NCBI GenBank assembly: GCA_016930535.1
Contig: JAFGGN010000062.1
Coordinates: 207 to 64,206 of the forward strand
Length of the DNA: 64,000 bases
Direction: 5' to 3'
Origin: a bacterium
GTDB taxonomy: Bacteria > Zhuqueibacterota > QNDG01 > JAFGCO01
Position 1 is the stretch's first letter; each line of letters begins with the position of its first letter. The notes beneath the pieces are model-generated. The model worked only from the letters and a program-made list of their open reading frames with translations. It searched no databases and was not told where the DNA came from. This document shows, in pieces, positions 6,835 through 38,930 of the stretch. The position numbers and the translations under genes are program-made.

Positions 6835-7200
6835 GGGTTAAAGAGGGTCATCGGGTCGTTGAGTCGTTGGGTCATCGGGTCTGTGGAGTCGGCGCGTGAG
6901 ACGGAGAACCGGAGACGCGGGGAACAATGACCGCAGACCGCGGACAGCCAGGCTGGCCGTCTGAGAATCGGAGAGACGGAGACGCTGGGAAACGGAGAAA
7001 AAAACGGATACAAATAAATTTTGACTCGTCTGCATGATATTGTCCCTTTTTCCGCTTCTCCCTTGCCGGGTGCGGCGCTTGCGCCTGGTTACGGCGCGCA
7101 GTACCTTATGCGGTTCTGTTTTGAATTTTGAATTTGTGTTTTGTGATATATTTGTTGTTTGGAATTTGAGATTATTGACGGTCAGCCGTCGGCGGTCCGC
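6835..7200. repeat. Modular intergenic repeat, copy R1
   Basis: GGGTC 8-mer module (6845-6880), GTGAGACGGAGAACCGGAG core, GAAACGGAGAAAAA, AT-rich TTTGAATTT/TTGGAATTT module (~7115-7170). Confidence 0.8.
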
Positions 7201-7228
7201 GCATTTAAGATATAAGGAGTGCCACAAC

Positions 7229-7939
7229 ATGAATGTTCAAGATATCGCTAAAATGATCGACCATTCTTTGCTTCATCCGACGCTGACGGATGCGGAGCTG
7301 GAAGCCGGATGTGCGCTGGCCCGGAAATGGGACGTGGCATCCGTGTGCATCAAGCCCTACGCGGTCAGGCAGGCCGCTGCCTGGCTCGGGGGATCGGATG
7401 TGCTCACGGGTACCGTGATCGGATTTCCGCACGGCAATTCGGATCTTTCCGTCAAAACGGCGGAGACGGGACAGGCGTGCAGCGACGGTGCGGTTGAAAT
7501 CGACATGGTCGTGAATATCGGCAGGGTACTCGGAGAGGACTGGGATTTTATTGAGCGTGAAATCGCCGGCGTACTGAATGTGTGCAGAAGTCACGAGGCC
7601 GTGCTGAAGGTCATTTTTGAAAACGATTATCTGCCCGGGGACCGGTTTAAGATCCGTTTATGTGAAATCTGCAGTGACCTGAAGGTGGATTATGCAAAAA
7701 CATCCACCGGATACGGATTCGTGAAGATGCCGGACGGAAAATACGCATACCGGGGCGCCACGGATCATGATTTGAAACTGATGCGGAAACACTGTCATCC
7801 GGATGTCCGGATCAAAGCGGCCGGGGGGGTGCGCACGCTGGATGATGTGCTCAGGGTGCGGGCGCTCGGTGTCACACGTATCGGCGCTTCGGCCACGGAA
7901 AGTATACTCGAGGAAGCGGTCAGGAGATTTCAAGATTAA
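7229..7939 (+). CDS. deoC: Deoxyribose-phosphate aldolase (start reassigned from 7034)
   Basis: IDHSLL, VIGFPHG, EIDMV, KTSTG, KAAGGVR, RIGAS; AAGGAG RBS before ATG 7229. Confidence 0.92.
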   Translation: MNVQDIAKMIDHSLLHPTLTDAELEAGCALARKWDVASVCIKPYAVRQAAAWLGGSDVLTGTVIGFPHGNSDLSVKTAETGQACSDGAVEIDMVVNIGRVLGEDWDFIEREIAGVLNVCRSHEAVLKVIFENDYLPGDRFKIRLCEICSDLKVDYAKTSTGYGFVKMPDGKYAYRGATDHDLKLMRKHCHPDVRIKAAGGVRTLDDVLRVRALGVTRIGASATESILEEAVRRFQD

Positions 7940-8085
7940 CAAGTCCATAGTGTCTGCAGGGTCGTTGGATCGGAGCGTGAAACGGAGTATCGGAGCGGTG
8001 GAGAAACGGAGAATAAAAAAAACAGAATGGATTTGCAAACGGAACTTCTTTTTCTCCGTTTCACTGTATCTCCGGTTCTCCGATG
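7932..8085. repeat. Modular intergenic repeat, copy R2
   Basis: AAGATTAA, then GGAGCGTGAAACGGAG..GGAGAAACGGAGAATAAAA..GGATTTGCAAACGGAACTTCTTTTTCTCCGTTTCAC palindromic unit. Confidence 0.85.
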
Positions 8086-8245
8086 CGATCCCAGGTTCAT
8101 CGTCCATGGTCCATTGATTCACCGCATCTGCAGTTCCCCGTTTCAGTCCGTGTTCCACTTCCGTATATCCGGGATCTGACAAATTCCGTGGAACCGAACA
8201 GGGGTTTCGAATGTTATTTATGAATAATAAAAATACAAGGAGTGA

Positions 8246-8455
8246 ATGATGACCGATCATGTGTATAAAATCGTTGAAGTCGTGGGAACCTCGCGCATCA
8301 ATATGGAAGACGCCATTAACACAGCCATTAAAAACGTGGGAAAATCCGAAAAGAACCTGAGATGGTTCGAACTGGTCGAAACACGCGGGCAGATCGAGAA
8401 CGGGGAAGTGGCCTATTGGCAGGTGACGGTACGGGTGGGTGTGACCGCAGCCTGA
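8246..8455 (+). CDS. Dodecin (flavin-binding protein)
   Basis: HVYKIVEVVGTS..AI..A..LRWFE..ETRG..WQV pattern; 69 aa; RBS AAGGAG. Confidence 0.9.
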   Translation: MMTDHVYKIVEVVGTSRINMEDAINTAIKNVGKSEKNLRWFELVETRGQIENGEVAYWQVTVRVGVTAA

Positions 8456-8567
8456 GCGGAATTTTTCGTTTTCTGATGCGGGATCCCGGCTGTTCCCGGC
8501 CGGGGAAATCCTTTCATGTATTTTTTATTAAAACGCACGAAACATTGAAAATCCGGGGGACAGAGGG

Positions 8568-9380
8568 ATGGAGAAGTTCGCCACATTGAATCCGATTCTG
8601 CAGGCCCTTCTTGCCACGTGTTTTACCTGGGCCGTAACTGCGCTCGGAGCGGCGCTGGTTTTTTTCTTTAAAACCATTCAACGTAAAGTATTGGACGGCA
8701 TGCTGGGATTCGCCGCCGGCGTGATGATTGCGGCCAGCTACTGGTCGCTTCTGGCACCCGCCATTGAAATGGCGGAAAACAACCTGACCTATGCACCGTG
8801 GATCCCGGCAACCGGGGGATTCCTTCTGGGCGGATTGTTCCTTTTTTCCGTGGACAAACTGCTGCCCCATTTGCATCCGGGTATGAAAACCGGGGATGCG
8901 GAAGGCATTCATACAAGCTGGCGGCGCAGTGTATTGCTGGTGCTGGCCATTACCCTTCATAATATTCCGGAAGGTCTGGCCGTGGGTGTGGCATTCGGGG
9001 CACTGGCCGCGAAACTGCCTTCGGCCACTTTGGCCGGAGCCGTGGCCCTCGCAGTAGGAATCGGGATTCAGAATTTCCCGGAGGGGACCGCAGTATCCGT
9101 TCCCCTGCGCAGGGAAGGCATGTCAAGGGGCAGGGCATTCTGGTACGGTCAGCTGTCGGGACTGGTGGAGCCGGTCGCCGGTGTCGGCGGCGCCCTGGCC
9201 GTCATCATGATGCGTCCGATACTGCCCTATGCACTGGCTTTTGCCGCAGGCGCCATGATTTACGTGGTCGTGGAGGAGCTGATTCCCACGTCGCAGGAAG
9301 AAAAACATTCAGATGTGGCCACCATCGGTGCCATGGCCGGATTCGCGCTCATGATGACGCTGGATGTGGCTCTGGGGTAA
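8568..9380 (+). CDS. ZIP-family (GufA/ZupT-like) metal transporter
   Basis: [44 protein letters not shown]. Confidence 0.9.
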
Positions 9381-9383
9381 GGC

Positions 9384-9835
9384 AAGAATCAAGATTAAAG
9401 ATTAAAGAACGAAGAACAAAGAACGAAGCACAAAGAAGGTTGAGTCGTCGGAACGGAGCGTGAAACGGTGAGGTGAGAAACGGGGAAACGGAGAAAAAGA
9501 TGGAGAAAACCGCAGAGCCGCAGTACGCCGAGACTTTCAGGTCAGTTGTACCGGAGCGTGAAACGGAGGGTCGGAGAGGATGAGAAACGGAGAATAAAAA
9601 ACACAGCGGTTTACAGACAGAACTTCTTTTTCTCCGTTTCACCGCATCTCCGTCTCTCAGCTGCAGTCCACGGCCTCATTCTTTTGTTTGAATTTTCGTA
9701 TTTTTAATTTGGAATTTATTTGAAATTTGGAGTTTGTTATTTGGAATTTCCCGCGGTCCGCGGTCATTGGATTGTCATCTCCGTTTCACCGCATCTCCGG
9801 TTCTCCGTTGCGGTCAGCAGTCTGCGGTCGTATTA
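9384..9835. repeat. Modular intergenic repeat, copy R3 (longest plus-oriented copy)
   Basis: Eight AAGAWYN heptamers (9384-9439), two GGAGCGTGAAACGG cores, palindromic unit, AT-rich module (9680-9750), GCGGTC module. Confidence 0.9.
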
Positions 9836-9837
9836 AC

Positions 9838-10578
9838 TTATCCCTTCGAGAAAAAATCGTCCACTTTCTGAATACCCGCCGACCGCGCTTCCTTGAGCGG
9901 ACCGCAGAACAATACTTTGCCCCTGTCCAGAAAAATCACATGATCCGCGATGCGCTTGATACTGGCTACTTCATGTGAAACCAGAACCACGGTCATGCCC
10001 AGTTGATCGCGCATTTTCAGAATGAGCTCATCCAGGCCCGCGGAGGTAACCGGGTCCAGTCCGGCCGAAGGCTCGTCCCCGAACAGCAGGGGCGGATCCA
10101 GGGCGATGGCCCGGGCCAGTGCGGCCCTTTTCCGCATGCCTCCGGAAAGTTCGGACGGATAGCGGTCGATGGCATGTCCCAGTTCGACCAGGTCGAGTTT
10201 GATTTCCACCAGTTTCCGGATGATTTCGTCGTTGAGGTCCGTATGCTGTTCGAGCGGGATGGATACGTTTTCCGCGACACTCATCGATCCGAGAAGTGCT
10301 CCGTTCTGGAACATGACGCCGATTTTCCTCAGAATGGTATTGAATTCGGGCTCATCCAGTTCCGTTATCTCCTGGCCGAAGAGGCGGATGGATCCGGACC
10401 AGGGCTGAAGCAGCCGTATCAGGTGTTTCAACAGCGTGGTTTTTCCGCACCCGCTGGATCCCAGAATGATCGTGATCTGGTTGCTTGGTGCATGGATGGA
10501 AACATTATCCAGAACCCGGATATCCTCATATCCGGATGTAAGGTCGCTGACTTCGACGATGTGCCGTGATTCGTTCAT
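9838..10578 (-). CDS. mlaF: MlaF-like ABC transporter ATP-binding protein
   Basis: GSSGCGKT, FQNGALLGSMSVAENV, ELSGGMRKRAALARA, DEPSAGLDP. Confidence 0.88.
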   Translation of the reverse strand: MNESRHIVEVSDLTSGYEDIRVLDNVSIHAPSNQITIILGSSGCGKTTLLKHLIRLLQPWSGSIRLFGQEITELDEPEFNTILRKIGVMFQNGALLGSMSVAENVSIPLEQHTDLNDEIIRKLVEIKLDLVELGHAIDRYPSELSGGMRKRAALARAIALDPPLLFGDEPSAGLDPVTSAGLDELILKMRDQLGMTVVLVSHEVASIKRIADHVIFLDRGKVLFCGPLKEARSAGIQKVDDFFSKG

Positions 10579-10616
10579 GGTCCGTTTTCTTTCAGAACAT
10601 GCTTCGTGATCATGAT

Positions 10617-11738
10617 CTATATGTCAATCGTCTGCCCCAGGTAAAAAATCAATCCGAGTATGGAATCCGCGAAAATCACCGCGAAAATGGAGGACACCAC
10701 CGAAGCGGTCGTGGCTTTGCCCACTTCGGCCGCACCGCCCCGGACGCGAAAACCATGATAAGCACCCAGAATCACGATGAGCCATGCGAATACGACGCTT
10801 TTCACCAGCCCCGTGATAATGTCCTTGAGAAACAGCGCACTGACCACCTGATTGTAAAAAGGTTCCAGTCCGATTTCCAGGTAAGTCAGACCGATCACGA
10901 AAGCGCCGAGAATACCGATAATGACCGACAGAATGGTGAGCAGCGGCATGGCCACGGTCATGGCGTAAAATTTGGGAACAAGCACGTACTGAACCGGGTT
11001 GAGCGCCATGGATTTCAGGGCATCGGTTTCTTCGGTGACGACCATGGTTGCAATTTCGGAAGTGATGGCCGAACCGCTGCGGCCCGCAAGCATGATCGCC
11101 GTCATGATCGGTCCCATTTCACGGGTCATGGAAATGGCGATCAGATCCGCCACATAAATGGCCGCACCGAACTGACGCAGCTGGGCGGCGGACTGCAGTG
11201 CGAGAATGAGTCCGATTAAAAAAGAAACAAGCCCGACAATTGGAAACGCATTCATTCCGATGAGGACCAGCTGATTGGTAAATTCGCCCTTGCGCTGGCC
11301 ATGCCTCTTCGTCAGGTTCTGTACGCTGTAATAGAATGTGTCTGCGATCAGGTAAAACAAGTCGTGCAGATGGTGCCCGACATCATAGGCAAAATTACCC
11401 ATCCTGGCCAGAACAGAGGCTTCCCTGGGCGGTCCGGGAGTGCCTTTCGAATCCTTTTTTCCGCTGAAGGTGGTCATGGCCTGGTCCACGAATGCAGGGA
11501 TCCTGGTCCAATGAAGCCGGATGTTTTTGGCGGCAGCGCTGTTTTTCAGGGTTTCCAGAAGCACCACACCTGCGGTGTCGATTTTTTCCACACGGCTCAG
11601 ATCCACGGAAAGATCCGGCTGTGCATGCAGTTCAAGAAGCTGCCCGGCCTGTTTCAGGACAAGACTGACCATGGGAATGGTCAATTCGCCCTCGATGGCC
11701 AAATCCATGCCGGTCCATGTGATTTGGGTCTCTTTCAA
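10617..11738 (-). CDS. mlaE: STAS-domain-fused MlaE-family permease
   Basis: N-terminal STAS (DLSRVEKIDTAG); REMGPIMTAIMLAGRSGSAITSEIATM motif. Confidence 0.9.
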   Translation of the reverse strand: MKETQITWTGMDLAIEGELTIPMVSLVLKQAGQLLELHAQPDLSVDLSRVEKIDTAGVVLLETLKNSAAAKNIRLHWTRIPAFVDQAMTTFSGKKDSKGTPGPPREASVLARMGNFAYDVGHHLHDLFYLIADTFYYSVQNLTKRHGQRKGEFTNQLVLIGMNAFPIVGLVSFLIGLILALQSAAQLRQFGAAIYVADLIAISMTREMGPIMTAIMLAGRSGSAITSEIATMVVTEETDALKSMALNPVQYVLVPKFYAMTVAMPLLTILSVIIGILGAFVIGLTYLEIGLEPFYNQVVSALFLKDIITGLVKSVVFAWLIVILGAYHGFRVRGGAAEVGKATTASVVSSIFAVIFADSILGLIFYLGQTIDI

Positions 11739-12358
11739 GGCAGGTCTCCGGGGACAGGCTGATTGAGCATGCCAGTCATTTCCGATACAAACCGTTCCGT
11801 TTCGTCATAGAGTATACGGCTGACGGTTTTTGCAAAGGCGTTCATGTTTTTGTCGTCTTTGAAAGGTTCGTTGCGATCGAAAGTGTGCCTGAGAACCGAT
11901 CCGCCGCTCTCCTTGTCGATCAGTTCTATGGTGCCGGATATGCTGGCCGAAATCGTTTTGCCGGTTTCATTTCTTTCGAGATGCAGCATATTGCCGGTTA
12001 CGATGTAATCCGGCTGGGACGAAAAACCGCGGGTCAGCCGTTCAAAAGCGGCATGATGCTGGAGCACCTGAAAAACCATATCTGCAATACCGGCGCCGGG
12101 ACGTACGGCCCAATGATGATAAAAATAGTAATTCATTTCATTCGAATTGGAACGCAGGGCAATGCGCGTCTGATCGACGGCCCGTGAAATTTCAAAATCC
12201 CGCACATCCACCTTCACCGGAAGCAGGATGTGTTCCGTGGAATCGGGCATTGAACCAGCCGGCATTTCAATCAGGTAATACTTGCGCAAAACCGCTTTTT
12301 TGCCGCACATAGAGAGCACCATCAAAGCGGCCAGGCATATCACAATCATGCGTTTCAT
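11735..12358 (-). CDS. ABC-type transport auxiliary lipoprotein (PqiC-like)
   Basis: Lipoprotein signal (LSMC), YYLI, HHWAVRPG..ADMV; position in the Mla operon; start set at MKRMIV. Confidence 0.75.
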   Translation of the reverse strand: MKRMIVICLAALMVLSMCGKKAVLRKYYLIEMPAGSMPDSTEHILLPVKVDVRDFEISRAVDQTRIALRSNSNEMNYYFYHHWAVRPGAGIADMVFQVLQHHAAFERLTRGFSSQPDYIVTGNMLHLERNETGKTISASISGTIELIDKESGGSVLRHTFDRNEPFKDDKNMNAFAKTVSRILYDETERFVSEMTGMLNQPVPGDLP

Positions 12359-12359
12359 C

Positions 12360-13343: not shown

Positions 13344-13479
13344 AAAAGGATCTCCCAGCGGATGATTGCGAATGATAAAAAAATAATCTTAAAAGAAGCA
13401 CGACAAGGTGTCATCGGGAATTTATCAAATATGCGGTATTGAAGCAAGGATTTTTTCGGCAAATTGGTTTTCTGTGGTC

Positions 13480-13700
13480 CACTGGATCGCTGTATCGTAA
13501 TGTGAAACGGAGAAACGGAGCGGGAGAGAGCCGGAGAAAATAAGTCAGTATCGAACAGGGAGGTATGTGCGGATATTTTTTTCTCCGTTTCTCATTTTCT
13601 CCGTATCCCCGTTTCACATCCCGACTCAGCGACTCCACGGACCCAATAGGCTCAATGACCCTGATATTCTCCGGTTCACGGTTTCCGGACGCGCATTTTC
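13480..13700. repeat. Modular intergenic repeat, copy R4
   Basis: TGTGAAACGGAGAAACGGAG...TTCTCCGTTTCTC..CCCCGTTTCAC inverted arms followed by GACCCAAT module. Confidence 0.8.
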
Positions 13701-13760
13701 ACTTGATCCCTGACCTTCGAATGCATAACTTCGGGGTAACTGTCCGGCCGGAGGTATTGT

Positions 13761-14453
13761 ATGAGATCTGAACCAGCCATGCGTTCCGTTTTTATCTGGC
13801 TTTTTCTCTATGCGGCTGCGATGGCCTTTGTGGAATCGGCCGTGGTCGTGTATTTGCGCTGGCTCTATTATCCGGATGGATTTTCGCTCACGGTTCAGTC
13901 ATTTCCTGTAAAAACCGTGCTGATCGAGGCGGTTCGTGAAGCGGCGACGCTTGTCATGCTCTTTTCAGTGGCCGCTCTTGCCGGAAAAAGCCGGGCAGAA
14001 CGCGCCGGCGCTTTCATTTTCATGTTCGGTGTGTGGGATATCTTCTACTACGTCTGGCTCAAGGTCATGCTTGACTGGCCGGCCGCGCTCACGGATCCGG
14101 ATATTCTGTTCCTCATTCCCGTGGCATGGGTCGGACCGGTGCTGGCACCGGTCCTCGTGTCCTGCGGAATGATCGCTGTTGGGATCCTGCTCTTTTATTA
14201 CGAACGGCATGCATGCTGCATCCGTACGGATATGATCGTGTGGCTGCTTGTTCTTGGGGGATGCGCAATCATATTCGCTTCGTTTGTATTCAATACAGGC
14301 ATGTCTGGAGAGGATATTTCCGGAACAAGGTTCAGGTGGGAGCTCTTCCTGGCCGGAACGGGAATGGCCGCGGGAGGAGCCTGGAGGATGTTCCATTCTC
14401 CAAGATTAAAGAACAAAGAACAAAGATTAAAGATCAAATCTGGCGGAACTTGA
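13761..14453 (+). CDS. Conserved hypothetical integral membrane protein; C-terminus read through a repeat
   Basis: Multiple hydrophobic segments, EAVREAAT and WDIFYYVWL motifs; last residues RLKNKEQRLKIK are encoded by the heptamer module. Confidence 0.75.
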   Translation: MRSEPAMRSVFIWLFLYAAAMAFVESAVVVYLRWLYYPDGFSLTVQSFPVKTVLIEAVREAATLVMLFSVAALAGKSRAERAGAFIFMFGVWDIFYYVWLKVMLDWPAALTDPDILFLIPVAWVGPVLAPVLVSCGMIAVGILLFYYERHACCIRTDMIVWLLVLGGCAIIFASFVFNTGMSGEDISGTRFRWELFLAGTGMAAGGAWRMFHSPRLKNKEQRLKIKSGGT

Positions 14454-14870
14454 GACGGAGTGTCGGAGTAGAGGAGAAACGGAGATGACAATCGCTGACC
14501 GCCGGAAATTCCAAATAACTCCAAATGACAAATAAATCCCAAATCTAAAATTTGAAAATTCAAACAAAAGAATAAGGCCTTGGACTGCAACGGAGAACCG
14601 GAGATACGGAAACGGAGAAAAAGAAGTTCTGTCTGCAAATCCGCTCTGTTATTTATACTCCGTTTCTCATTTTCTCCGCGTCTCCGTTTCACGTTCTGAT
14701 ACAACTCACCTGAAAGTCTCTGCGTACTCTGCGCCTTGCAGTTTTCTCCATCTTTTTCTCCGTTTCTCCATCTCTCTGAAGCCCCGTTTCACGCTCCGCC
14801 CCAATGACTCTAAGACCCAAGGACCCAACTGACCCAACGACTCTGTGACCCAACAGACCCAACGGCTCCG
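14402..14870. repeat. Modular intergenic repeat, copy R5 (largely an inverted copy of R3)
   Basis: 14476-14797 is the reverse complement of 9455-9787 with scattered substitutions; GACCCAA module 14812-14865. Confidence 0.9.
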
Positions 14871-14879
14871 CATCACGAT

Positions 14880-24048: not shown

Positions 24049-24921
24049 ATGGATTATCTTGATGCCGGCCGGAATTTTTTAGGAATCGAAAACTGCCATA
24101 CCTGGAATGAAGCCAGCTTTGCCATTCTTCCGGTTCCTCTTGAAAAAACGACCAGTTATCTGCACGGCACTGGCGGGGGCCCTGCGGCCATCCTCGAGGC
24201 CTCCCGCCAGGTCGAGATGTACGACGATGAATGCCTCTGTGAAACCTACAGGAAAGGCATCGTGACGCTTTTACCCATGACCTTTGAAAAGGATTCGCAT
24301 CAAAGGGCCGTCGATAAAATCACCACTCAGACGAAAAAAATTCTGAAACATAAAAAGAAACCGGTGCTCATCGGCGGCGAACACAGCCTCAGTATCGGCG
24401 CCGTTCGCGCAATGACCGAAAAATATCCGGATCTGCATGTACTTCATCTGGATGCACATGCGGACCTGCGTGAGGAGTATGAAAACTCCGATTTGAACCA
24501 TGCCTGCGTCATGTCGCAAATCCGGAATCTCTGCTCCTTTACCAGCGTGGGTATACGGAGCCTCTCCAAAGAAGAGTCGGACACCATCCATAACGGGCTG
24601 CTCGATGTCTGGACGGTACATAAACTGCGGAGACAAGACGACTGGATACAGGAGGTGATGAAGCATCTGCATGACCCGCTTTATATCAGTCTGGACCTTG
24701 ACGTATTCGATCCTTCCGTCATTCCCAATGTGGGAACACCCGAACCCGGCGGGCTTTTTTGGGATGAATGCCTGCGGTTTTTGAAAGCTGTATTCGGGCG
24801 TCATCAGGTGGCGGGGATGGACATGGTGGAACTGAGTCCGGAATCAGGCCCCGCCTACGGTGTTTTTTCAGCGGCCAAACTCCTTTACCGGCTGATCGGG
24901 TACTGGGGAAGACAAGAATAA
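24049..24921 (+). CDS. speB: Agmatinase
   Basis: GGEHS, DAHADL, DLDVFDP, GTPEPGG, DMVE ureohydrolase motifs; follows arginine decarboxylase. Confidence 0.9.
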   Translation: MDYLDAGRNFLGIENCHTWNEASFAILPVPLEKTTSYLHGTGGGPAAILEASRQVEMYDDECLCETYRKGIVTLLPMTFEKDSHQRAVDKITTQTKKILKHKKKPVLIGGEHSLSIGAVRAMTEKYPDLHVLHLDAHADLREEYENSDLNHACVMSQIRNLCSFTSVGIRSLSKEESDTIHNGLLDVWTVHKLRRQDDWIQEVMKHLHDPLYISLDLDVFDPSVIPNVGTPEPGGLFWDECLRFLKAVFGRHQVAGMDMVELSPESGPAYGVFSAAKLLYRLIGYWGRQE

Positions 24922-25175
24922 AGATTAAAGAACAAAGAACAAAGAACAAAGATATAGACATGATTCGGGGATGTCGTCGGATTGGACCGTGAAACGGCGA
25001 ACCGGAGCGGGGGAGAACCGGAGAGGAAAACAGGATTCAAACAAGACCGTGACCGGCCGATATAATATTATCGCCTTTTCTCCGTTTCTCTGTTACTCCG
25101 ATTCTCCGTTTCATTTTCCGCTTCAACGACCTGATGACCCAATGACCCAAAGACCCGTTGACCCAAGAGACCTGA
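24914..25175. repeat. Modular intergenic repeat, copy R6
   Basis: Six heptamers 24914-24955, CCGTGAAACGG arm, inverted TTCTCCGTTTC arm, GACCCAAT module 25125-25170. Confidence 0.85.
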
Positions 25176-26157: not shown

Positions 26158-26251
26158 CACACACATTCTCTGATTTTCAAATGGGTGTCCGCTTTACGGC
26201 GTGCCGTAAGGCGGATTTTTTGAAAAGCCGACGGGAATGGTGGGAGAACCC
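26158..26251 (+). ncRNA. rpsB 5' leader (S2 autoregulatory / t44-like structure)
   Basis: CACACATTC pairs with GGAATGGTG; internal GGGTGT motif; hairpin GCTTTACGGC-GT-GCCGTAAGGC directly upstream of rpsB. Confidence 0.55.
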
Positions 26252-28593: not shown

Positions 28594-28594
28594 C

Positions 28595-29152: not shown

Positions 29153-29180
29153 GTTCATGTGTTTATAACAGAGCAGATTG

Positions 29181-30934: not shown

Positions 30935-30951
30935 GCGGAAGAAGAAAAACG

Positions 30952-31020: not shown

Positions 31021-31044
31021 CGGAGCGGAGAGGAATTGAGATAG

Positions 31045-31120
31045 AAAAGGTGGGAGCCCAGATGCGTGTTCTCACCTTTTTTATTTAAAGTCGTGAGAAC
31101 AAACTCACGACTTTTTTTTT
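31045..31120 (+). terminator. trp attenuator hairpins (two tandem stem-loops with T-tracts)
   Basis: AAAAGGTGGGAGC/GTTCTCACCTTTT (31045-31080) and AAAGTCGTGAG/CTCACGACTTT+T (31087-31120). Confidence 0.8.
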
Positions 31121-31139
31121 ATATGAAGGAGGAATTTTT

Positions 31140-32159: not shown

Positions 32160-32350
32160 ACGGGTCATTGGGTCAAACAGGTCGTTGAGTCTGTAGGGTC
32201 GTTGTGTCGGAGGGTGAAACGGAGAACCGGAGCAACGGGGAAAAATGAACAATCCGAGAATCTCTGCCCGATACTCTGTTTTATTCTCCGTTTCTCACTT
32301 TCTCCGACCCTCCGGTTCACGGTCCGACCCGGCGACATAATGACCCGATG
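32160..32350. repeat. Modular intergenic repeat, copy R7 (inside trp operon)
   Basis: GGGTC module, GGAGGGTGAAACGGAGAACCGGAG arm, inverted TTCTCCGTTTCTC..CCGGTTCAC arm, GACCCGAT. Confidence 0.85.
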
Positions 32351-32395
32351 CATTCACGACCGGCGACCTAGAGTATTATTTAGAAAAGGGATCCC

Positions 32396-33166: not shown

Positions 33167-33169
33167 AGC

Positions 33170-33793
33170 GTGAATCTGAATTTTCGAAAGGTCCGGGGAA
33201 AGACCCGGGTAAAAATCTGCAGCATCACCAATCTGGAAGACGCCATGACGGCCGTGGACTGCCATGCGGATGCACTGGGATTCATTTTTGCCGAATCCAA
33301 ACGCCGGATCACCCCTGCCGGGGCCGCATTCATCATCGAGCGTATTCCAATTTTCGTCAAGACCGTGGGCGTGTTTATGAACAGCTCTCTGGACGAGGTC
33401 CGCTGCACGGCGGAAGAGGCCGGTGTGGATGTGGTGCAGCTTCACGGGGAGGAACCCCCGGATTTCTGCAGCGCGGTCGGCCGGCCCGTAATCAAACGGA
33501 TTCATGTCCGGGACGAGTCCACGGTTGCTTCCATTCATGCGGAAATGGACCGGTATCAGAATGTGCACTTTCTTCTCGATCCGGGTGCCGGCGACGGCCG
33601 TACATTCCCGTGGAATCAGCTCCAGGGAATCGGCCGCCCGTTTATACTGGCCGGGGGCCTGACACCGGACAATGTCTGGGAGGCCATTCAGTTACTTCAG
33701 CCCTATGCGGTCGATGTCAGTTCAGGTGTTGAGGTCCGGCCCGGCAAAAAGGATCCGGACAAAATCAGACATTTTATTCAGGAGGCCAAATGA
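33170..33793 (+). CDS. trpF: Phosphoribosylanthranilate isomerase
   Basis: [32 protein letters not shown]. Confidence 0.95.
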
Positions 33794-34971
33794 CACATTT
33801 GCCCGATGCATCGGGGCATTGGGACCGTTTCGGCGGCCGGTATGTGCCGGAAACCGTGATGGCGGCCCTATATGAACTGGAAGCGGAATATGAAAGAGCC
33901 AGGTCCGATGAAATATTCGAAAATGAATTCATCCATATTATGAATCAGTACGTCGGCCGGGAAACGCCGTTGTATTTTGCGGAGAGGCTGACAAAAAAGA
34001 TCGGCGGCGCAAAAATCTATCTGAAACGGGAAGATCTCGCGCATACCGGAGCGCATAAAATCAACAATACGATCGGTCAGATCCTTCTGGCCAGACGCAT
34101 GGGAAAACCGCGTATCATTGCCGAGACCGGAGCAGGGCAGCATGGCGTAGCCACGGCCACGGCCTGCGCGCTCATGGGACTCGAATGTCAGGTGTATATG
34201 GGCGCGGTGGATGTGAAACGGCAGCGCATGAACGTTTTCCGTATGGAACTTCTGGGCACACGCGTCGTGCCCGTGGAATCCGGATCGAAAACACTGAAGG
34301 ATGCGATCAATGAGGCGATGCGCGACTGGGTGACCAATATTGAAAATACGTTTTACTGCATCGGTTCCGTGGTCGGCCCGCATCCCTATCCCATGATGGT
34401 CAGGGATTTTCAAACCATTATCGGCCGCGAGGCCAGACAGCAGATGCATGAACTGGAAAACAGGCTGCCGGACCTGCTCGTGGCCTGCGTGGGCGGCGGC
34501 AGCAACGCCATGGGTCTGTTTTATCCGTTCCTGCAGGATGCAGACGTGAAAATCGTCGGTGTGGAAGCCGCCGGACACGGTGTCCATACGGGAAAACACA
34601 GCGCCACGCTCTGTATGGGATCCGTGGGATCGCTGCACGGCGCCATGAGTTATATGCTGCAGGATGAGAACGGCCAGGTGCTCGAGGCCCATTCCGTGTC
34701 TGCGGGTCTGGACTATCCGGGTGTGGGGCCGGAGCACAGTTACCTGAAGGATAACGGACGGGTCAGCTATGTGTCAGCCACGGACGAAGAGGCTCTGGGT
34801 GCATTCCGGCTTCTCTGTGAAACCGAGGGCATCATTCCCGCGCTGGAGAGCGCTCATGCAGTGGCGCATGCGGTCAAGGCAGCGGCCGATATGCCCGCAG
34901 ATCAGATCGTACTCGTGAATCTTTCGGGCCGTGGTGATAAGGATCTTGAAATCGTGGAGGGACTGGTATGA
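33790..34971 (+). CDS. trpB: Tryptophan synthase beta chain
   Basis: [54 protein letters not shown]. Confidence 0.98.
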
Positions 34972-35750
34972 GCATACGCGAGACATTCGACCGGTTGAAA
35001 TCCGGCAATGAGATGGCCCTGATCGCCTATCTGACCGGGGGGTTCCCTTCGCTCGAGGCGTCGATGGAGCTAATACGTACCCTTTCTGCGAATGGAGCGG
35101 ATATTATCGAAATCGGCATACCGTTTTCCGATCCTATTGCCGACGGGCCCACGATACAGGCCTCTTCGCAGGCGGCACTTGAAAAGGGTGTATCCCTGCC
35201 GCAGATTCTCGAAGCCGTTTCCCGTATTCAAACCGATACTCCGCTGGTGGCCATGAGTTATCTGAATCCGCTGCTGGCCTATGGAAGGGAGCGGCTTCTC
35301 CAGGACATGAAAGCCGCGGGATTTTCGGGTCTGATCGTTCCGGATCTGCCCCTGGAAGAGGCGGAAAAAGGCAGGGGGACCGAATCCGGATGGAAAACCG
35401 AAGCCATAAAGCATGGCATCGACCTGATTTTCCTGGTCACACCCACCACATCCGAGGACCGGCTCAGACGCCTCGTGGATGCGACCGAGGGATTCGTATA
35501 TTGCGTGAGTCTGACGGGCATCACGGGAGAACGGTCCGATCTGCCGCCCCATCTTTCAGAATTTTTGGGAAAAGTGAAATCCCTTACGGACAAACCTGCG
35601 GCTGTCGGATTCGGCATTTCCACTCCTGCACATGTGCGTCAGTTGAAAACCATGGCGGATGCCGTAATCGTGGGCAGCCGAATCGTCAAGGCCGTATCCG
35701 AAGGCGAGGATCTGGGAAGCCTGATTCGGGCATTGAAAGCGGAATGCTGA
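34968..35750 (+). CDS. trpA: Tryptophan synthase alpha chain
   Basis: [37 protein letters not shown]. Confidence 0.97.
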
Positions 35751-35797
35751 ACAGGCGGAGCAGAAAATGCAACTTCATGATCAATTCGAGGACGACA

Positions 35798-37204
35798 ATG
35801 AATCCTGTTCCAAAGATTAAACTGGATTACATACACAGGCGGATCCGGTACGACGGATGTCCGCTGACCATTTATGAGAAGCTGTACCGGTCCGAACCCT
35901 ACGGTTTCATTTACGAATCTCTGGAAAGCCTGGAAAAGCGGGGACGTTATTCCGTGATCGGTTCCAGACCCTACATGCGGTTCGAAAGCCGGGGCAGCCA
36001 TATCACCATCAACTATGCGGCTGCTGTTTTTGAAATGGAAGGGGATCCGTTCCAGGTGCTGCGGCAGCTGGTTCCCAAGGATCATCCGCATCCGGACGTG
36101 CTCCCGCTGGCCGGCGGCGCCGTAGGTTATATGGCCTACGACAGCATCCGGTATGTGGAAAATATTCCCGACGGCAATCCCGATGAGATGAACGTGCCGG
36201 ATATGATTTTCATGTTTCCGTCCGAGCTGATCATATTCGATCATCAGGAATGGATGGCGGATATCATTATTTACGGACAGGAACCGTCTGAAAAGAGGCT
36301 GACCGAACTCGTGCAGGAAGTGGCCACGAGTCTCGAAAAACCCGAAGTGCGTTATGATAAGAAACCGCCTCAGGAGGTGAAATTTACCAGCAATTTCACG
36401 AAGGACGGATTCTGCCGCATTGTGGAGCGGGCCAAGGAATACATACTGGCCGGGGATATTTTTCAGGTGGTTCTGTCACAGCGGTTCACATTCCCGCTGC
36501 ATACGGATCCACTCAATGCCTATCGCGCGGTGCGTTTTACAAATCCGTCACCCTATATGTATTATATGCATTTGAAGGATTTCTACGTGCTCGGATCCTC
36601 ACCGGAAATCATGGTCAAGCTGAGCGGCGAGGAGGTGAATATCAAACCCCTTGCCGGCACGCGCAGGCGGGGAAATGACGAGGCCGAGGACAGTGCGTTT
36701 GCCGGGGAACTGCTGCATGATGAAAAGGAACGGGCGGAACACGTGATGCTGCTCGATCTGGCCAGGAACGATATCGGGCGTGTCTGCGAGTACGGCTCCA
36801 TCCGCTGGCCCAATACTTTTTATATAGAATACTATTCCAAGGTCATGCATCTCGTTTCGGATGTGTACGGAAAGCTCGCGGAAGGCAGGGATGCCTTCGA
36901 TCTCGTGGCCGCATCGTTCCCGGCGGGAACCGTATCCGGATCTCCTAAAGTCCGCTCAATGGAGATCATCGACGAGCTGGAAAATGTGCGCCGCGGCGTC
37001 TATGCCGGATCGATCGGTTATTTCGGATTCAACGGGGACATGGATATGTGTATTGCGATCCGGAACCTGATTCTGAAGAACGATAAGGGCATTCTTCAGG
37101 CGGGTGCAGGCATTGTGGCCGACTCCGTGCCGGAGATGGAGTACAAGGAAACCCTGAACAAGGCACGGGCGCTGATTCAGGCTGTCGAGATGATGGGAGG
37201 CTGA
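35798..37204 (+). CDS. trpE: Anthranilate synthase component I (start reassigned from 35390)
   Basis: [62 protein letters not shown]. Confidence 0.95.
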
Positions 37205-37205
37205 C

Positions 37206-37784
37206 ATGATTTTCGTTCTGGATAATTATGATTCGTTTGTTTATAACCTGGTGCAGTATCTGGGTGTCCTGGGTCAGGAACTGAAGGTTTTCAGAAACGA
37301 TGCGATCACGGTCGAGGCGGTCGGGGAAATGCATCCTTCGGTCATTCTCATTTCACCGGGACCCTGTACGCCGAACGAGGCGGGCATTTCGAAGGATCTG
37401 ATCTCGGCTTATGCGGACAGCATACCCATTCTGGGTGTCTGTCTGGGCCATCAGTGCATCGGCGAGGTGTTCGGTGGTAAAGTCATCCGGGCCGGTCAGG
37501 TCGTGCACGGCAAGGTCAGCGAAATTCATCATGACGGCAAAACCATATTTGAAGGCATTGGAAATCCGTTTACCGCGACCCGGTATCATTCGCTCATTGT
37601 CGAGCGCAGGTCGCTGCCGGATTGTCTCGAGATCTCCGCGGAAACGAAGACCGGTGAAATCATGGCGCTCCGGCACAAAATCCATCCGGTCGAGGGCGTT
37701 CAGTTCCATCCCGAATCCGTGCTCACCGAACCGGGAATGAATATATTGAAGAATTTTCTGAAGCGGGCCAAGGTGAAGATTTAA
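37206..37784 (+). CDS. trpG: Anthranilate synthase component II (glutamine amidotransferase)
   Basis: [35 protein letters not shown]. Confidence 0.95.
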
Positions 37785-38085
37785 GATTAAAGAACGAAGA
37801 ACAAAGAACAAAGACAAAAGAACATCGTTGTGTCGGAACGTGAAACGGAGGGCCGGAGCGGTGGAGAAACGGAGAAAAAGATATAGAAAACCGCAGAGGC
37901 GCAGAGATTATTAGGCCAGTTGTGTCGGAACGTGAAACGGAGGGTCGGAGCGGTGGAGAAACGGGGAATAAAAAAACGGAACGGATTTGCAGACAGAACT
38001 TCTTTTTCTCCGTTTCACCGGATCTCTGTCTCTCCGAGGCATTCACGGTCTGCGGTCCGCCGTTCGCGGTCCGCGGTCTGTGATT
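37776..38085. repeat. Modular intergenic repeat, copy R8
   Basis: Heptamers from 37776; two GTCGGAACGTGAAACGGAGGG cores (~37832, ~37924); same GGATTTGCAGACAGAACTTCTTTTTCTCCGTTTCAC unit as R2/R3/R5; GCGGTCC module. Confidence 0.9.
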
Positions 38086-38126
38086 GGCATATCCATCACG
38101 CCGTTTCATTTTAAGGAACAATACAT

Positions 38127-38624
38127 ATGCCTGACGATCAAAAACCATTTTCCGGGTATCGGATCGTGACTGCGGATCCCGGTGACGCGGAGGAAATCCT
38201 GCAGCTGCAGAAGCTGGCCTATTGGTCCGAAGCGGCCATTATCGATGACTATACAATCGAACCTCTGGTGCAGACGCTCGGGGAAAAGCAAACAGAATTT
38301 GGAGATCAGGTGTTTCTGAAGGCCTTGTATAACGGACGGATCATCGGTTCGGTGAAAGCCTATGAGGAGGAAGGCACCTGTTATATCGGCAAGGTCATTG
38401 TCTGTCCGGATCTGCAGAACCGGGGCATCGGGAAATGCCTGATGAAGCAGATTGAGCAACGGTTCAGAACGGTCAGCAGATACGAGCTGTTTACGGGCGC
38501 TCTGAGCAAAAGGAATATCGCTTTCTACGAAAAATGCGGATACCGGATTTTTGATGAACGTAAAATCTCGGAAAAGCTGAGCCTGGTTTTTATGGAAAAA
38601 CCGAAACGACGGGTGGAAGGGTAG
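38127..38624 (+). CDS. GNAT-family N-acetyltransferase
   Basis: IIGSVKA, VIVCPDLQNRGIG, FYEKCGY. Confidence 0.88.
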   Translation: MPDDQKPFSGYRIVTADPGDAEEILQLQKLAYWSEAAIIDDYTIEPLVQTLGEKQTEFGDQVFLKALYNGRIIGSVKAYEEEGTCYIGKVIVCPDLQNRGIGKCLMKQIEQRFRTVSRYELFTGALSKRNIAFYEKCGYRIFDERKISEKLSLVFMEKPKRRVEG

Positions 38625-38679
38625 ATGAGTATATGGGTCCCGGCTGCCCATCCCCAAAATATAGCAACGTTTGAGCTTT

Positions 38680-38930
38680 GATGTGAGAAACGGAGAATTG
38701 GTGAAACGGAGGAAAAAACAAACTTCTTCTCCTTGTCTCCGTCTCCCCGTTTCTCTTCTCTCCGTTTCACGCTCCGACACGATGACCCGATTATCTTTGG
38801 TCTTTGGTCTTTGTTCTTTAATCTTGTCTCTTTAATCTTTTCCTCCGTCTCTCCGTTTCTCACCTCTCCGGTTCACACTCCGACCCAGAGACCCGATGAC
38901 CAATGACCCTGCGACTCAACCGACCCGAAT
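38680..38930. repeat. Modular intergenic repeat, copy R9
   Basis: GAGAAACGGAG..GTGAAACGGAG arm, CTCCGTTTCACGCTCC arm, minus-strand heptamers 38792-38841, GACCCGAT module to 38930. Confidence 0.85.

What the first reader, a model, noticed from the sequence alone, without database searches (positions are those of the whole stretch)
6835..38930. Genome-specific family of mosaic palindromic intergenic repeats (nine loci in 32 kb)
Nine intergenic regions (6835, 7932, 9384, 13480, 14402, 24914, 32160, 37776, 38680) share one architecture. A simple-repeat module (AAGAWYA heptamers or GACCCRAT/GGGTC octamers) is followed by an arm GTCG..GAGCGTGAAACGGAG..GAGAAACGGAGAA. Then come a 25-60 nt variable spacer, the inverted arm TTCTCCGTTTC..CTCCGTTTCAC, and often an inverted simple-repeat module. 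Modules are shuffled, duplicated and inverted between loci, giving 150-470 bp elements. They occur inside operons (trpD-trpC, kinase-deoC) and encode nothing. This looks like a REP/BIME- or MITE-like non-autonomous element with no mobilising gene in the window. The module combinatorics do not match a family I can name.
Basis: seen in the sequence. Interest (0 to 1): 0.75.

Follow-up and report, generated by a model that had tools for sequence, protein, structure and literature searches.

The report
Modular foldback repeats after stop codons
Nine gaps between genes hold copies of a non-coding repeat built from runs of 7- and 8-base units arranged as long imperfect hairpins; it has multiplied to about 290 sites in this uncultured bacterium, begins almost exactly at stop codons, and belongs to a kind of bacterial repeat that is already described but still unexplained.

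Summary
All nine loci carry the described modules, far beyond chance. The "arm" is a tandem array of 8-nt units (NNNCGGAG).

Across the genome there are 291 module loci, about 2% of the DNA and 94% intergenic, and they cause many contig breaks. The elements are polar. Reading from a gene's stop codon the order is (AAAGAWY)n, then (GGGTCNNN)n, arm type 1, loop, inverted arm type 2, and then TTTGGAA and GCGGTCN arrays.

In co-directional gaps they start a median of 8 nt before the end of the upstream stop codon and end 85 nt before the next start codon. The trpD-trpC and trpG sites are empty in relatives, so these copies are derived insertions. Among 167 genomes of the phylum only this one has a burst (145 arm matches); three relatives have 2-4.

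I found no partner transposase. The genome's Y1 (RAYT-type) genes are flanked by their own, different REP sequences. The two arms of a hairpin show no compensatory pairing.

The same unit core (TCTCCGT) occurs in paired arrays in Geobacter metallireducens and on nine unrelated metagenome contigs.

Verdict: a new member of the known, unexplained class of stop-codon-proximal heptamer/octamer arrays and foldback repeats. It is most likely selfish or neutral DNA.

The parts
6831..7010 (+). Element 1, directly after the stop of the PfkB kinase gene (6830). GGGTC octamer array 6845-6891 (x6), CGGAG arm 6902-6923, GACCGC units 6929-6941, second CGGAG arm 6969-6998.
   Evidence: Every module has 30-120 BLAST copies in the genome.
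7932..8095 (+). Element 2. The lead-in CAAGATTAA supplies the deoC stop codon (7937-7939). Then G-like units, arm type 1 at 7973-8013, a 38-nt loop of the 'L1' family, and inverted arm type 2 at 8052-8083.
   Evidence: RNA fold -48 kcal/mol, z = -1.4.
9381..9830 (+). Element 3, a full composite between convergent genes (ZIP transporter and ABC ATPase). H heptamers 9383-9437, arm 1, CGCAGAG module, arm 1 at 9554-9594, L1 loop, inverted arm 9630-9658, TTTGGAA array 9706-9749, GCGGTC array 9751-9765, inverted arm 9776-9808, GCGGTC 9810-9829.
   Evidence: The same module order recurs at six or more loci at about 80% identity.
13476..13665 (.). Element 4, in a divergent gap (MlaD-like gene and a membrane protein gene). 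Arm 13502-13538, loop, inverted arm 13581-13612, GACCC units 13623-13645.
14402..14868 (.). Element 5, between convergent genes; both ends abut stop codons. H heptamers 14401-14438 (the stop at 14451-14453 lies inside the element), arm, AT-rich module, arm 14589-14619, L1 loop reversed, inverted arms 14656-14696 and 14756-14796, GACCC octamers 14800-14864 next to the stop of the transglutaminase-like gene (14880).
24910..25175 (+). Element 6, between the arginase-family gene and rplM. H heptamers 24913-24953 supply the TAA stop (24919-24921). Arm 24985-25025, loop of the 'L2' family, inverted arm 25077-25114, GACCC octamers 25134-25172.
32160..32350 (.). Element 7, inside the trp operon between trpD and trpC; nearly symmetric. 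GGGTC units 32162-32201, arm 32210-32242, loop, inverted arm 32284-32324, GACCC units 32326-32347.
   Evidence: RNA fold -84 kcal/mol, z = -5.2. The orthologous junction is 2-30 bp in most of 24 relatives and 107 unrelated bp in G001.
37776..38085 (+). Element 8, after trpG; the stop at 37782-37784 lies in the H lead-in. H heptamers 37789-37824, arm 1 at 37836-37876, CGCAGAG module 37892-37905, arm 1 at 37928-37968, L1 loop, inverted arm 38006-38037, CGGTCCG heptamers 38046-38078.
   Evidence: The site is empty in G001.
38625..38930 (-). Element 9, oriented opposite to the flanking + genes. GTATATG-type module at 38625-38650, short hairpin 38685-38755, inverted arm 38758-38774, TCTTTG heptamers 38793-38841, inverted arm 38843-38880, GACCC octamers 38882-38927.

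Best explanation
The nine loci are copies of one amplified family of non-coding, non-autonomous, modular foldback repeats. The modules are degenerate tandem arrays of 7- or 8-nt units, that is, long-unit simple-sequence repeats.

Shown:
- There are about 290 loci, almost all intergenic.
- The polarity is fixed: stop codon, (AAAGAWY)n, (GGGTCNNN)n, arm type 1, loop, inverted arm type 2, then (TTTGGAA)n and (GCGGTCN)n.
- The ends abut or overlap the stop codon of the upstream gene and leave the downstream promoter and ribosome-binding region free.
- The copies are derived insertions that relatives lack.
- The burst is confined to this genome.

Inferred:
- The elements are copied as DNA from one gene 3' flank to another by machinery supplied in trans or by the replication and recombination apparatus. 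This may be template switching seeded at unit-like microhomology such as TAA-AG or GGGTTTTAG.
- The arrays then grow, shrink and recombine by slippage, which produces the mosaic.
- Copies persist only where they do little harm, namely just after stop codons.
- They are probably co-transcribed as 3' UTR or intercistronic RNA. Any effect on mRNA ends is secondary.
- On balance they are selfish or neutral DNA, not a dedicated regulatory device.
For: - Copy number and chance controls: 188 CGGAG arrays, 85 GGGTC, 154 AAAGA and 33 GCGGTC, against 0-1 in a shuffled genome; 291 loci; 73 of 282 contig ends lie at a locus.
- Location: 94% of repeat bases are intergenic.
- Polarity: arrays within 40 nt of a gene 3' end are sense-oriented in 80 of 82 cases (H), 27 of 27 (G) and 21 of 22 (arm).
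- Hairpins pair arm type 1 with type 2 in 28 of about 31 cases, and they are co-oriented with genes in 11 of 12 co-directional gaps.
- Position: in 131 co-directional gaps the median distance from stop to element is -8 nt and from element to next start 85 nt; 111 of 131 lie closer to the stop, p = 2e-16.
- TAA is the stop codon in 65 of 80 genes next to an H array, against 42% genome-wide.
- Filled versus empty sites: trpD-trpC, the trpG 3' end and the reverse case G001 filled / G000 empty.
- G001 has two near-identical copies after the stops of unrelated genes.
- Burst: 145 arm matches in this genome, 2-4 in three relatives and 0 in 163 other genomes of the phylum.
- A composite of about 450 bp with fixed module order occurs at six or more loci.
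- Selfish or neutral reading: pairwise copy identity has a median of 80% and a maximum of 95%. The arms of one hairpin are no more complementary to each other than to random partners, 0.53 against 0.57. There are no canonical sense-strand terminators. RAYT-type REPs are nested inside the elements.
Against: - No transposase, target-site duplication or intact autonomous copy was found, so the means of spread is inferred.
- There are no very young copies (none above 95% identity), although the assembly breaks at these repeats and may hide them.
- The same 5-nt core recurs in Geobacter (PMC2700814) and on nine metagenome contigs with 29-59% G+C. One orthologous site is filled in both G000 and G001, although their proteins are only 60-82% identical. 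Both facts are easier to explain if the unit is read by something conserved.
- The exact juxtaposition to stop codons is sharper than simple tolerance would predict. About 24 H arrays start 0-2 nt after the stop.
Confidence: 0.55

Rival explanations
1. The arrays are functional binding platforms. A conserved RNA- or DNA-binding protein, or the ribosome via the GGAG cores, reads CGGAG (and GGGTC or AAAGA) at a 7-8-nt register on the transcript or on the non-template strand just after the ribosome leaves. This would set mRNA stability, re-initiation or local chromosome structure. It corresponds to the 'global regulator binding site' idea proposed for Geobacter metallireducens.
For: - Within each unit the core is conserved and three positions are free.
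- There is no compensatory pairing between arms, so the motif is conserved and the helix is not.
- Orientation is strictly sense and the arrays are anchored at stop codons.
- The same core occurs in the class 2 paired sites of G. metallireducens (PMC2700814) and on nine unrelated metagenome contigs, for example in a dnaK-dnaJ spacer where the stop codon lies inside GTGAAACGG.
- One orthologous site is filled in two genera.
- 47 of 80 stop-adjacent H arrays stand alone, often spanning from the stop to the next start.
Against: - The pattern is absent from 163 of 167 genomes of the phylum and nearly absent from the sister genus, so it is not required by the lineage.
- The flanking genes are functionally unrelated.
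- HU/IHF genes are not expanded: 2 in G000 against 1-9 in relatives.
- Copies are 20% diverged and mosaic.
- No candidate binding protein was identified.
Confidence: 0.2
2. The elements are a REP/BIME-type system mobilised by a Y1 (RAYT) transposase acting on single-stranded hairpins.
For: - The genome has five Y1_Tnp genes.
- One of them (C98) is single-copy and has a 72% identical ortholog in G001, the only other genome of the family.
- The layout is mosaic and extragenic, lies in gene 3' flanks and alternates in orientation, as BIMEs do.
- A strand-specific orientation is what single-strand transposition would give.
Against: - Two Y1 genes are flanked by their own classical REPs (GTCCCGTAGGGAC type and GGACGGCC..GGCCGTCCTACA type). 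None is flanked by octamer arms.
- The arms are 40-50-nt unit arrays without a GTAG-type head.
- Homologs of the C98 gene occur in genomes without arrays and are missing from G022, which has arrays.
Confidence: 0.08
3. The elements are MITEs, deletion derivatives of an IS or transposon whose ends carry multiple subterminal binding sites, moved by a DDE transposase encoded elsewhere or since lost.
For: - The arms are long imperfect terminal inverted repeats.
- Element boundaries are sharp.
- The left and right ends are asymmetric.
- Near-identical copies lie at unrelated sites in G001.
- A tight operon junction has been filled.
Against: - No target-site duplication is visible.
- No protein family has three or more copies at 70% identity or above in the assembly.
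- No copy encloses an ORF.
- The termini are variable-length simple repeats, not fixed ends.
- There is no plasmid or phage match.
Confidence: 0.12
4. The elements are static transcription terminators or mRNA-stabilising hairpins that evolved in place.
For: - They sit at gene 3' ends and are enriched between convergent genes: 17.8% of such gaps carry one, against 4.7% of co-directional gaps.
- One copy folds much better than shuffled sequence, z = -5.2.
Against: - They occur inside the trp operon.
- No U-tract follows the hairpin on the sense strand, while canonical terminators exist elsewhere in the window at 26187 and 31087.
- Orthologous sites in relatives are empty.
- Two of the three folded copies are no more stable than shuffles.
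- The arms show no covariation.
Confidence: 0.05

Closest known systems
[quoted passage not shown] 2009, PMC2700814)
   Same: - Paired tandem 7-8-nt units lie on opposite strands at a variable distance.
- The class 2 unit has the same core as this arm (TCTCCGT is the reverse complement of ACGGAGA).
- GGGACCG is one base away from the CGGTCCG/GCGGTCN module seen here.
- The Geobacter elements are multicopy, mostly intergenic and specific to one species of the genus. Some sites belong to two classes, which is a mosaic arrangement.
   Different: - Geobacter belongs to a different phylum and has far fewer copies (21 pairs against 153 arm-bearing loci).
- The paper text I read does not mention anchoring at stop codons, a fixed polarity or a higher-order composite.
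- The IHF/HU binding proposed there was never tested, and HU/IHF genes are not expanded here.
- I could not align the Geobacter sequences because the figure files are not held as text.
Intergenic heptamer simple-sequence repeats close to stop codons: GGGAATC in Xanthomonas, GGGGA(C/T)T in Nostoc/Anabaena (Rehm et al. 2015, PMC4692102); cyanobacterial STRR heptamers (from memory: Mazel et al. 1990); TAACTGA repeats of Beggiatoaceae, Cyanobacteria and Bacteroidetes (MacGregor 2015, PMC4679880)
   Same: - Tandem 7-nt units make up arrays that are about 90% intergenic.
- The arrays lie much nearer the upstream ORF end than the downstream ORF, often within 0-50 nt of the stop codon or overlapping it on the coding strand.
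- Some occur as inverted pairs, and they are under-represented between divergent genes.
- Their function is unresolved.
- 29 of 85 GGGTC arrays here also fit the G3N1-7 x4 quadruplex motif.
   Different: - Here several unit families are joined in a fixed order around a long hairpin.
- Whole composites of 150-470 bp are repeated, so this is more than a microsatellite.
- The H unit is A-rich and cannot form a quadruplex.
BIMEs and REPINs of enterobacteria and pseudomonads (REP/PU sequences with the accessory motifs of BIMEs; RAYT transposases). From memory: Gilson et al. 1991; Nunvar et al. 2010; Bertels and Rainey 2011; Ton-Hoang et al. 2012
   Same: - Both are extragenic mosaics of palindromic units and accessory motifs, with alternating orientation.
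- Both lie in 3' flanks and between cistrons, number in the hundreds and have two unit types that pair heterotypically (as Y and Z PUs do).
   Different: - There is no sequence similarity.
- The arms are unit arrays, not 20-40-nt palindromes with a GTAG head.
- The genome's RAYTs have other cognate REPs, and those REPs are nested inside these elements.
MITEs (for example Correia/NEMIS, RUP, and modular elements such as pneumococcal BOX; named from memory)
   Same: They are non-coding, carry inverted-repeat ends, measure 100-500 bp, are dispersed, have a modular build (BOX A-Bn-C) and are co-transcribed with neighbouring genes.
   Different: No target-site duplication, no fixed termini and no parent IS were found.

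Membership tests
REP/REPIN-RAYT system | A cognate Y1 (RAYT) gene flanked by the same repeats | tested here: not met
   There are five PF01797 genes. Two are flanked by different, classical REPs and the other three by no repeats. None is flanked by octamer arms.
REP/REPIN-RAYT system | A short (20-40 nt) imperfect palindrome with a conserved GT[AG]G head | tested here: not met
   The arms are 40-50-nt arrays of NNNCGGAG units with the consensus TCGTTGGGTCGGAGCGTGAAACGGAG...GAGAAACGGAGAA. They have no GTAG head.
REP/REPIN-RAYT system | Extragenic, high copy number, inverted doublets | tested here: met
   94% of repeat bases are intergenic, 153 loci carry arms, and convergent arm pairs are present.
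BIME (bacterial interspersed mosaic element) | A mosaic of palindromic units of two or more types in alternating orientation, plus accessory motifs, in 3' flanks or intercistronic gaps | tested here: met
   Arm types 1 and 2 pair heterotypically in 28 of about 31 hairpins. Accessory modules H, G, T, C and R keep a fixed order. The elements abut stop codons. This is an architectural resemblance only; there is no sequence homology.
BIME (bacterial interspersed mosaic element) | Binding of IHF, DNA gyrase or DNA polymerase I | not testable with these tools
   This needs biochemistry. The HU/IHF gene count is not elevated.
MITE | Terminal inverted repeats | tested here: met
   The inverted arms and inverted outer arrays are present.
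MITE | Target-site duplication of fixed length | tested here: inconclusive
   None was seen at junctions. The ends are variable simple repeats, which would hide a short duplication.
MITE | A related autonomous IS with the same ends | tested here: not met
   No protein family has three or more copies at 70% identity or above, and no element encloses an ORF. Caveat: this is a fragmented MAG of 141 contigs.
Stop-codon-proximal heptamer/octamer simple-sequence arrays (long-unit SSRs; Xanthomonas, Nostoc, Geobacter type) | Tandem units of 7-8 nt, three or more copies, over-represented against chance, intergenic | tested here: met
   460 arrays against 0-1 in a shuffled genome. Unit counts range from 3 to 20.
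Stop-codon-proximal heptamer/octamer simple-sequence arrays (long-unit SSRs; Xanthomonas, Nostoc, Geobacter type) | Located within about 50 nt of the upstream stop codon or overlapping it, on the coding strand | tested here: met
   Sense orientation in 80 of 82 H arrays and 27 of 27 G arrays. The median offset is -8 nt. Compare PMC4692102.
Stop-codon-proximal heptamer/octamer simple-sequence arrays (long-unit SSRs; Xanthomonas, Nostoc, Geobacter type) | Rapid variation in unit number between close strains | not testable with these tools
No near-identical genome was available, and the nearest relative has only 60-82% protein identity.
Intrinsic (Rho-independent) terminator | A G+C-rich stem followed by a U-tract on the sense strand | tested here: not met
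   No strong sense-strand terminator-like site lies in any element, while canonical ones occur at 26187-26216 and 31087-31114.
Any Rfam RNA family | A match at the gathering threshold | tested here: not met
   There were 0 matches in the whole window.

The most novel reading that the evidence does not exclude
The stop-anchored, sense-oriented arrays could be the footprint of an undescribed process that either generates or reads repeats and is shared across phyla.

- The same units (ACGGAGA octamers, GGACCGN heptamers) appear in this FCB-group MAG, in Geobacter metallireducens and on metagenome contigs with 29-59% G+C.
- Together with the 8-nt register and the lack of helix covariation, this would fit a protein or ribonucleoprotein that acts on single-stranded RNA, or on the non-template DNA strand, exactly where the ribosome leaves the message.
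- That factor would either seed arrays there or use them, for example to control re-initiation or 3'-end fate.
- In this reading the mosaic elements are its amplified substrates, not ordinary junk.
Probability: 0.12. Interest if true: 0.85.

Novelty: new member of a known kind. Interest (0 to 1): 0.4.

Why it matters
Intergenic heptamer and octamer arrays placed at stop codons have been reported piecemeal for decades, as cyanobacterial STRR, Xanthomonas GGGAATC, Beggiatoaceae TAACTGA and Geobacter 'regulator sites'. No mechanism or function is known for any of them.

This genome is an extreme case and an unusually ordered one. About 290 loci show a fixed polarity, two arm types and clear filled-versus-empty orthologous sites. 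It also shares its core unit with a distant phylum.

That makes it a useful data set for three questions:
- whether such arrays are by-products of slippage,
- whether they are mobile DNA,
- whether they are binding platforms.

In practical terms, the elements break the assembly (a quarter of contig ends lie at one) and create false ORFs. The finding does not by itself reveal a new mechanism.

Tried and rejected
- Rfam at gathering thresholds over the whole window gave no match.
- The single genome-contig scan with four exact CGGAG units was uninformative.
No RNA evidence, insertion polymorphism or unit-number variation could be checked, and read laying was therefore unusable.
- An exact-protein look-up for the dodecin gene found no other contig.
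- RAYT link: Y1 genes exist, but two carry other REPs and none is flanked by octamer arms. Homologs of the C98 gene do not track the arrays across the order.
- IS partner: an all-against-all protein comparison found no family with three or more copies.
- HU/IHF expansion, the idea from the Geobacter paper: not seen.
- Terminator reading: rejected.
- Hairpin selection: folding z-scores were mixed at -5.2, -1.4 and -0.8. A partner-shuffle test showed no excess complementarity.
- Replication direction against gene direction as the determinant of orientation: only 9 discordant cases, of which 7 follow the gene. This is suggestive only, because G/C skew tracks gene strand in this genome.
- Plasmid and phage collections gave no match.
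- Target-site duplications: none recognisable.
- The supplementary alignments of the Geobacter paper are not held as text, so no direct sequence comparison was possible.

Full report
**Observation.**
- GAGCGTGAAACGGAG with up to 2 mismatches occurs 13 times in the window, against 0.13 expected. GAGAAACGGAGAA with up to 2 mismatches occurs 56 times, against 1.7 expected. All but two weak matches fall in the nine loci.
- Tandem Repeats Finder lists the AAGAWYA heptamers, the GGGTCATC/GACCCAAC octamers and a period-8 GAGAAACG signal inside the arms. The arm is therefore a tandem array of 8-nt units, with five conserved bases (CGGAG) and three free ones.
- Pfam confirms the flanking genes: trpD and trpC, followed by trpF, trpB, trpE and trpG; a PfkB kinase next to a DeoC aldolase; an arginase-family gene next to rplM; and a ZIP transporter.
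- Rfam has no match anywhere in the window.

**Genome-wide census.** The window is C106:207-64206 of a 4.99-Mb, 141-contig MAG with 51.5% G+C.
- GTGAAACGGAG occurs 223 times, against 2.4 expected.
- BLAST of the nine elements against the genome shows that every module, and even the 'spacers', has 15-200 copies, with sharp outer boundaries. Iterating the search converges on about 397 regions and 94 kb, or 1.9% of the genome. That set also picked up two unrelated REP families.
- Direct detection of arrays gives 188 CGGAG arrays (period 8), 85 GGGTC arrays (period 8), 154 AAAGA arrays (period 7) and 33 GCGGTC arrays (period 7). A shuffled genome gives 0-1.
- These arrays group into 291 loci: 153 with arms, 93 with H arrays only and 22 with G arrays only. 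73 of 282 contig ends lie within 400 nt of a locus, so the true copy number is higher.
- With a codon-usage gene caller, 94% of repeat bases are intergenic.
- Further unit families (GTAGAAGN, GTATATGN, CGCAGAGN, TTTGGAA) occur in the same elements.

**Anatomy and polarity.** Reading outward from a gene's stop codon, the order is H (lead-in RGCAAGA, then WYAAAGA units), G (GGGTCNNN), arm, loop, inverted arm, and then either inverted G or H arrays, or T (TTTGGAA) and C (GCGGTCN) arrays.
- There are two arm types. Type 1 (152 copies) is ...GGGTCGGAGCGTGAAACGGAGnnnCGGAGArrATGAGAAACGGAGAA. Type 2 (104 copies) is AACCGGAGAnnCGGTGAAACGGAGA and lies next to C arrays.
- Hairpins pair type 1 with type 2 in 28 of about 31 convergent arm pairs. 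In co-directional gaps the type 1 arm is on the gene's sense strand in 11 of 12 cores. For single arms the figure is 83 against 35.
- Arrays within 40 nt of a gene 3' end are sense-oriented in 80 of 82 cases for H, 27 of 27 for G and 21 of 22 for arms.
- In 131 co-directional gaps the element starts a median of 8 nt before the end of the upstream stop codon, and 66% start no later than 5 nt after it. The element ends a median of 85 nt before the next start codon. 111 of 131 lie closer to the stop, p = 2e-16. In convergent gaps both ends lie a median of 4 nt from a stop. In divergent gaps the ends lie a median of 78 nt from the start codons.
- TAA is the stop codon of 65 of 80 genes next to an H array, against 42% genome-wide. 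About 24 arrays begin 0-2 nt after the stop, and about 30 supply the stop codon themselves.
- 47 of 80 stop-adjacent H arrays stand alone. They often fill the whole gap from stop to start, or precede a canonical terminator.
- Convergent gaps carry elements most often: 17.8%, against 4.7% of co-directional and 5.9% of divergent gaps.
- Where gene direction and G/C skew disagree, the element follows the gene in 7 of 9 cases. The test is weak because skew tracks gene strand in this genome.

**Is the hairpin the selected feature?**
- One copy, in the trpD-trpC gap, folds far better than shuffled sequence (z = -5.2). Two others do not (z = -1.4 and -0.8).
- Across 65 cores, the two arms of one hairpin are no more complementary to each other than to arms from other elements (0.53 against 0.57, z = -3.9). 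At the variable positions pairing is 38%, which is at chance. Only the inner 12 bp or so and the CGGAG cores can pair.
- Loops fall into a few families, for example AATAAAAAAACAGAACGGATTTGCAGACAGAACTTCTTTTT, plus many unique short loops. Loops begin with an A run and end with a T run.
- No element carries a canonical sense-strand terminator. Such terminators exist elsewhere in the window, at 26187 and 31087.

**Insertions, not ancestral sequence.**
- The order holds 31 genomes. The trpD-trpC junction is 2-30 bp in most of 24 relatives, 107 unrelated bp in G001 (the only other genome of the family), and 236 bp of element in this genome.
- The site after trpG is empty in G001.
- Conversely, G001 has two nearly identical copies after the stops of two unrelated genes. 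One of these sites is empty in this genome (C20). The other is filled in both genomes (C135:4690), although the orthologous proteins are only 82% identical.
- At that shared site the gene's own end (GGGTTTTAG or GGGTTTTAA) resembles a G unit. H arrays likewise join at TAA-AG. I read this as a hint of seeding at microhomology. It is an inference only.
- The arm pattern CGGAGN3CGGAGN8AAACGGAG occurs 145 times here, 2 times in G001, 3 in G022 and 4 in G003 (one long array). It occurs 0 times in the other 163 genomes of the phylum, and the reversed-pattern control gives 0.
- The H pattern with its lead-in occurs 35 times here, once in G001 and nowhere else in the order.
- A composite of about 450 bp with a constant module order recurs at six or more loci.
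- Copies are 72-88% identical (5th-95th percentile), with a median of 80% and a maximum of 94.7%. No very recent burst is visible in the assembly.

**Search for a partner.**
- Five Y1_Tnp (PF01797) genes exist. The genes on C129 and C37 are each flanked by their own classical REP hairpins (GTCCCGTAGGGAC/GCCCCTACGGGGC type, and GGACGGCC...GGCCGTCCTACA type). None is flanked by octamer arms.
- Those REPs are often nested inside the mosaic elements. 11 of 18 and 8 of 15 motif hits lie within 300 nt of a module locus, a zone that covers 4% of the genome.
- A third Y1 gene (C98) is single-copy and has a 72% identical ortholog in G001. Its homologs also occur in genomes without arrays, and it is missing from G022.
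- No protein family has three or more copies at 70% identity or above.
- HU/IHF genes are not expanded: 2 here, against 1-9 in relatives.
- The plasmid and phage collections give no match.

**Wider distribution and literature.**
- A scan of metagenome contigs for GTGAAACGGAGN3CGGAGN5GAGAAACGG found nine contigs with 29-59% G+C. Their proteins are only 38-63% identical to those of this genome. All nine carry GTGAAACGGAG(ANACGGAG)n arrays next to other 7-8-mer arrays.
- In at least four of these contigs the arrays lie just after a gene end on the sense strand. One case is a dnaK-dnaJ spacer in which the stop codon lies inside GTGAAACGG.
- Earlier notes of this scan pointed to the literature, which I then read.
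- Rehm et al. 2015 (PMC4692102) describe GGGAATC and GGGGA(C/T)T heptamer arrays. They are about 90% intergenic, lie an average of 28 nt from the upstream ORF against 160 nt from the downstream one, are mostly within 0-50 nt of the stop codon or overlapping it on the coding strand, and sometimes form inverted pairs. Their function is unresolved.
- MacGregor 2015 (PMC4679880) describes TAACTGA arrays in Beggiatoaceae, Cyanobacteria and Bacteroidetes, and suggests horizontal spread and a post-transcriptional regulator.
- Aklujkar et al. 2009 (PMC2700814) describe features unique to Geobacter metallireducens within its genus: paired opposite-strand sites of three tandem repeats with consensus TCTCCGTS[Y], octamers GTTGCTYN, heptamers MTYCTGA, and 49 elements of GGGACCG x4. 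They are interpreted there, without any test, as binding sites for global regulators.
- TCTCCGT is the core of the inverted arm here, and GGGACCG differs by one base from the CGGTCCG/GCGGTCN module.

**Interpretation.** The evidence best fits a non-autonomous, modular foldback repeat of the class of stop-proximal 7-8-nt arrays and paired tandem repeats, amplified in this one lineage.
- Shown: the copy number, the polarity, the anchoring at stop codons, the derived insertion at specific sites, the restriction of the burst to this genome, the lack of an identifiable partner gene, and the lack of helix covariation.
- Inferred: that copies spread as DNA by trans-acting or general replication and recombination functions; that slippage and recombination between unit arrays generate the mosaic; and that position and orientation reflect where and on which strand insertion occurs or is tolerated.
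- The main rival is that the unit arrays are read by a conserved factor. It is supported by the cross-phylum recurrence of the same core, by conservation of the motif and not of the helix, and by one site shared between genera. Against it stand the near absence of the arrays from the rest of the phylum and the lack of a candidate protein.
- REP/RAYT membership fails on its defining features. MITE membership is unproven. The terminator reading is rejected.

**Limits.**
- The genome is a fragmented MAG that breaks at these repeats.
- The nearest relative is very distant.
- My gene calls come from a home-made codon-usage caller.
- Orientation statistics for palindromic copies are partly built in by their symmetry. 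The informative cases are the asymmetric cores and the H and C modules.

Noticed in passing
G000 contig C129:117200-118600 and C37:5150-6050 (outside the window): Two RAYT-type Y1 transposase genes are each flanked by their own classical REP hairpins: TAGTCCCGTAGGGAC / GTCGCCCCTACGGGGC with ATATTTRTAGA tails, and TGTAGGACGGCC..GGCCGTCC. Copies of these REPs are frequently nested inside the loops of the octamer elements.
   Followed up: partly
window 38625-38650; also G000 C21:1816-1950, C26:13518-13650, C109:144684-144720: Further octamer-unit families share the same elements: GTATATGN next to a GGGACCC..GGGTCCC hairpin, GTAGAAGN arms that form their own inverted pairs, and CGCAGAGN. The genome therefore has several parallel 'arm' families, not one.
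   Followed up: no
L146 (G008), L149 (G002), L161 (G014), at the trpD-trpC junction: Three other genomes of the order carry unrelated inserts of 170-200 bp at the same trpD-trpC junction. The G008 insert is an inverted repeat built from its own short units (TTATAAGTT / TTAAAGT). The junction seems to be a recurrent landing or tolerance site.
   Followed up: no
L209, L212, L213, L214 (metagenome contigs): Unrelated uncultured bacteria have intergenic regions packed with five or six different 7-8-mer arrays in a row, for example GCGAATGG, TTTACGC, TTACGCAT, CCCTCGTC and GACCNNA, together with the CGGAG octamers.
   Followed up: partly
window 34968-35750 and 35390-37204: The ORF called for trpE (604 aa from 35390) overlaps the trpA ORF by about 360 nt. 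The G001 ortholog aligns only from residue 135, so the real trpE start is probably further downstream.
   Followed up: no
window 6835-38930 against 38931-64000: All nine loci lie in one 32-kb half of the window, where about 1.9 would be expected from the genome average. The other half has none, and two more loci lie just beyond the window end (C106:65520-66385).
   Followed up: partly
L215 (G001:C7), about 200 nt upstream of trpD: G001 has a canonical hairpin plus T-run (GGTGGGACTCTTTATCATGTTCCCACCTTTTTTTT) upstream of trpD. It may be a leader or attenuator, or the terminator of the upstream gene.
   Followed up: no
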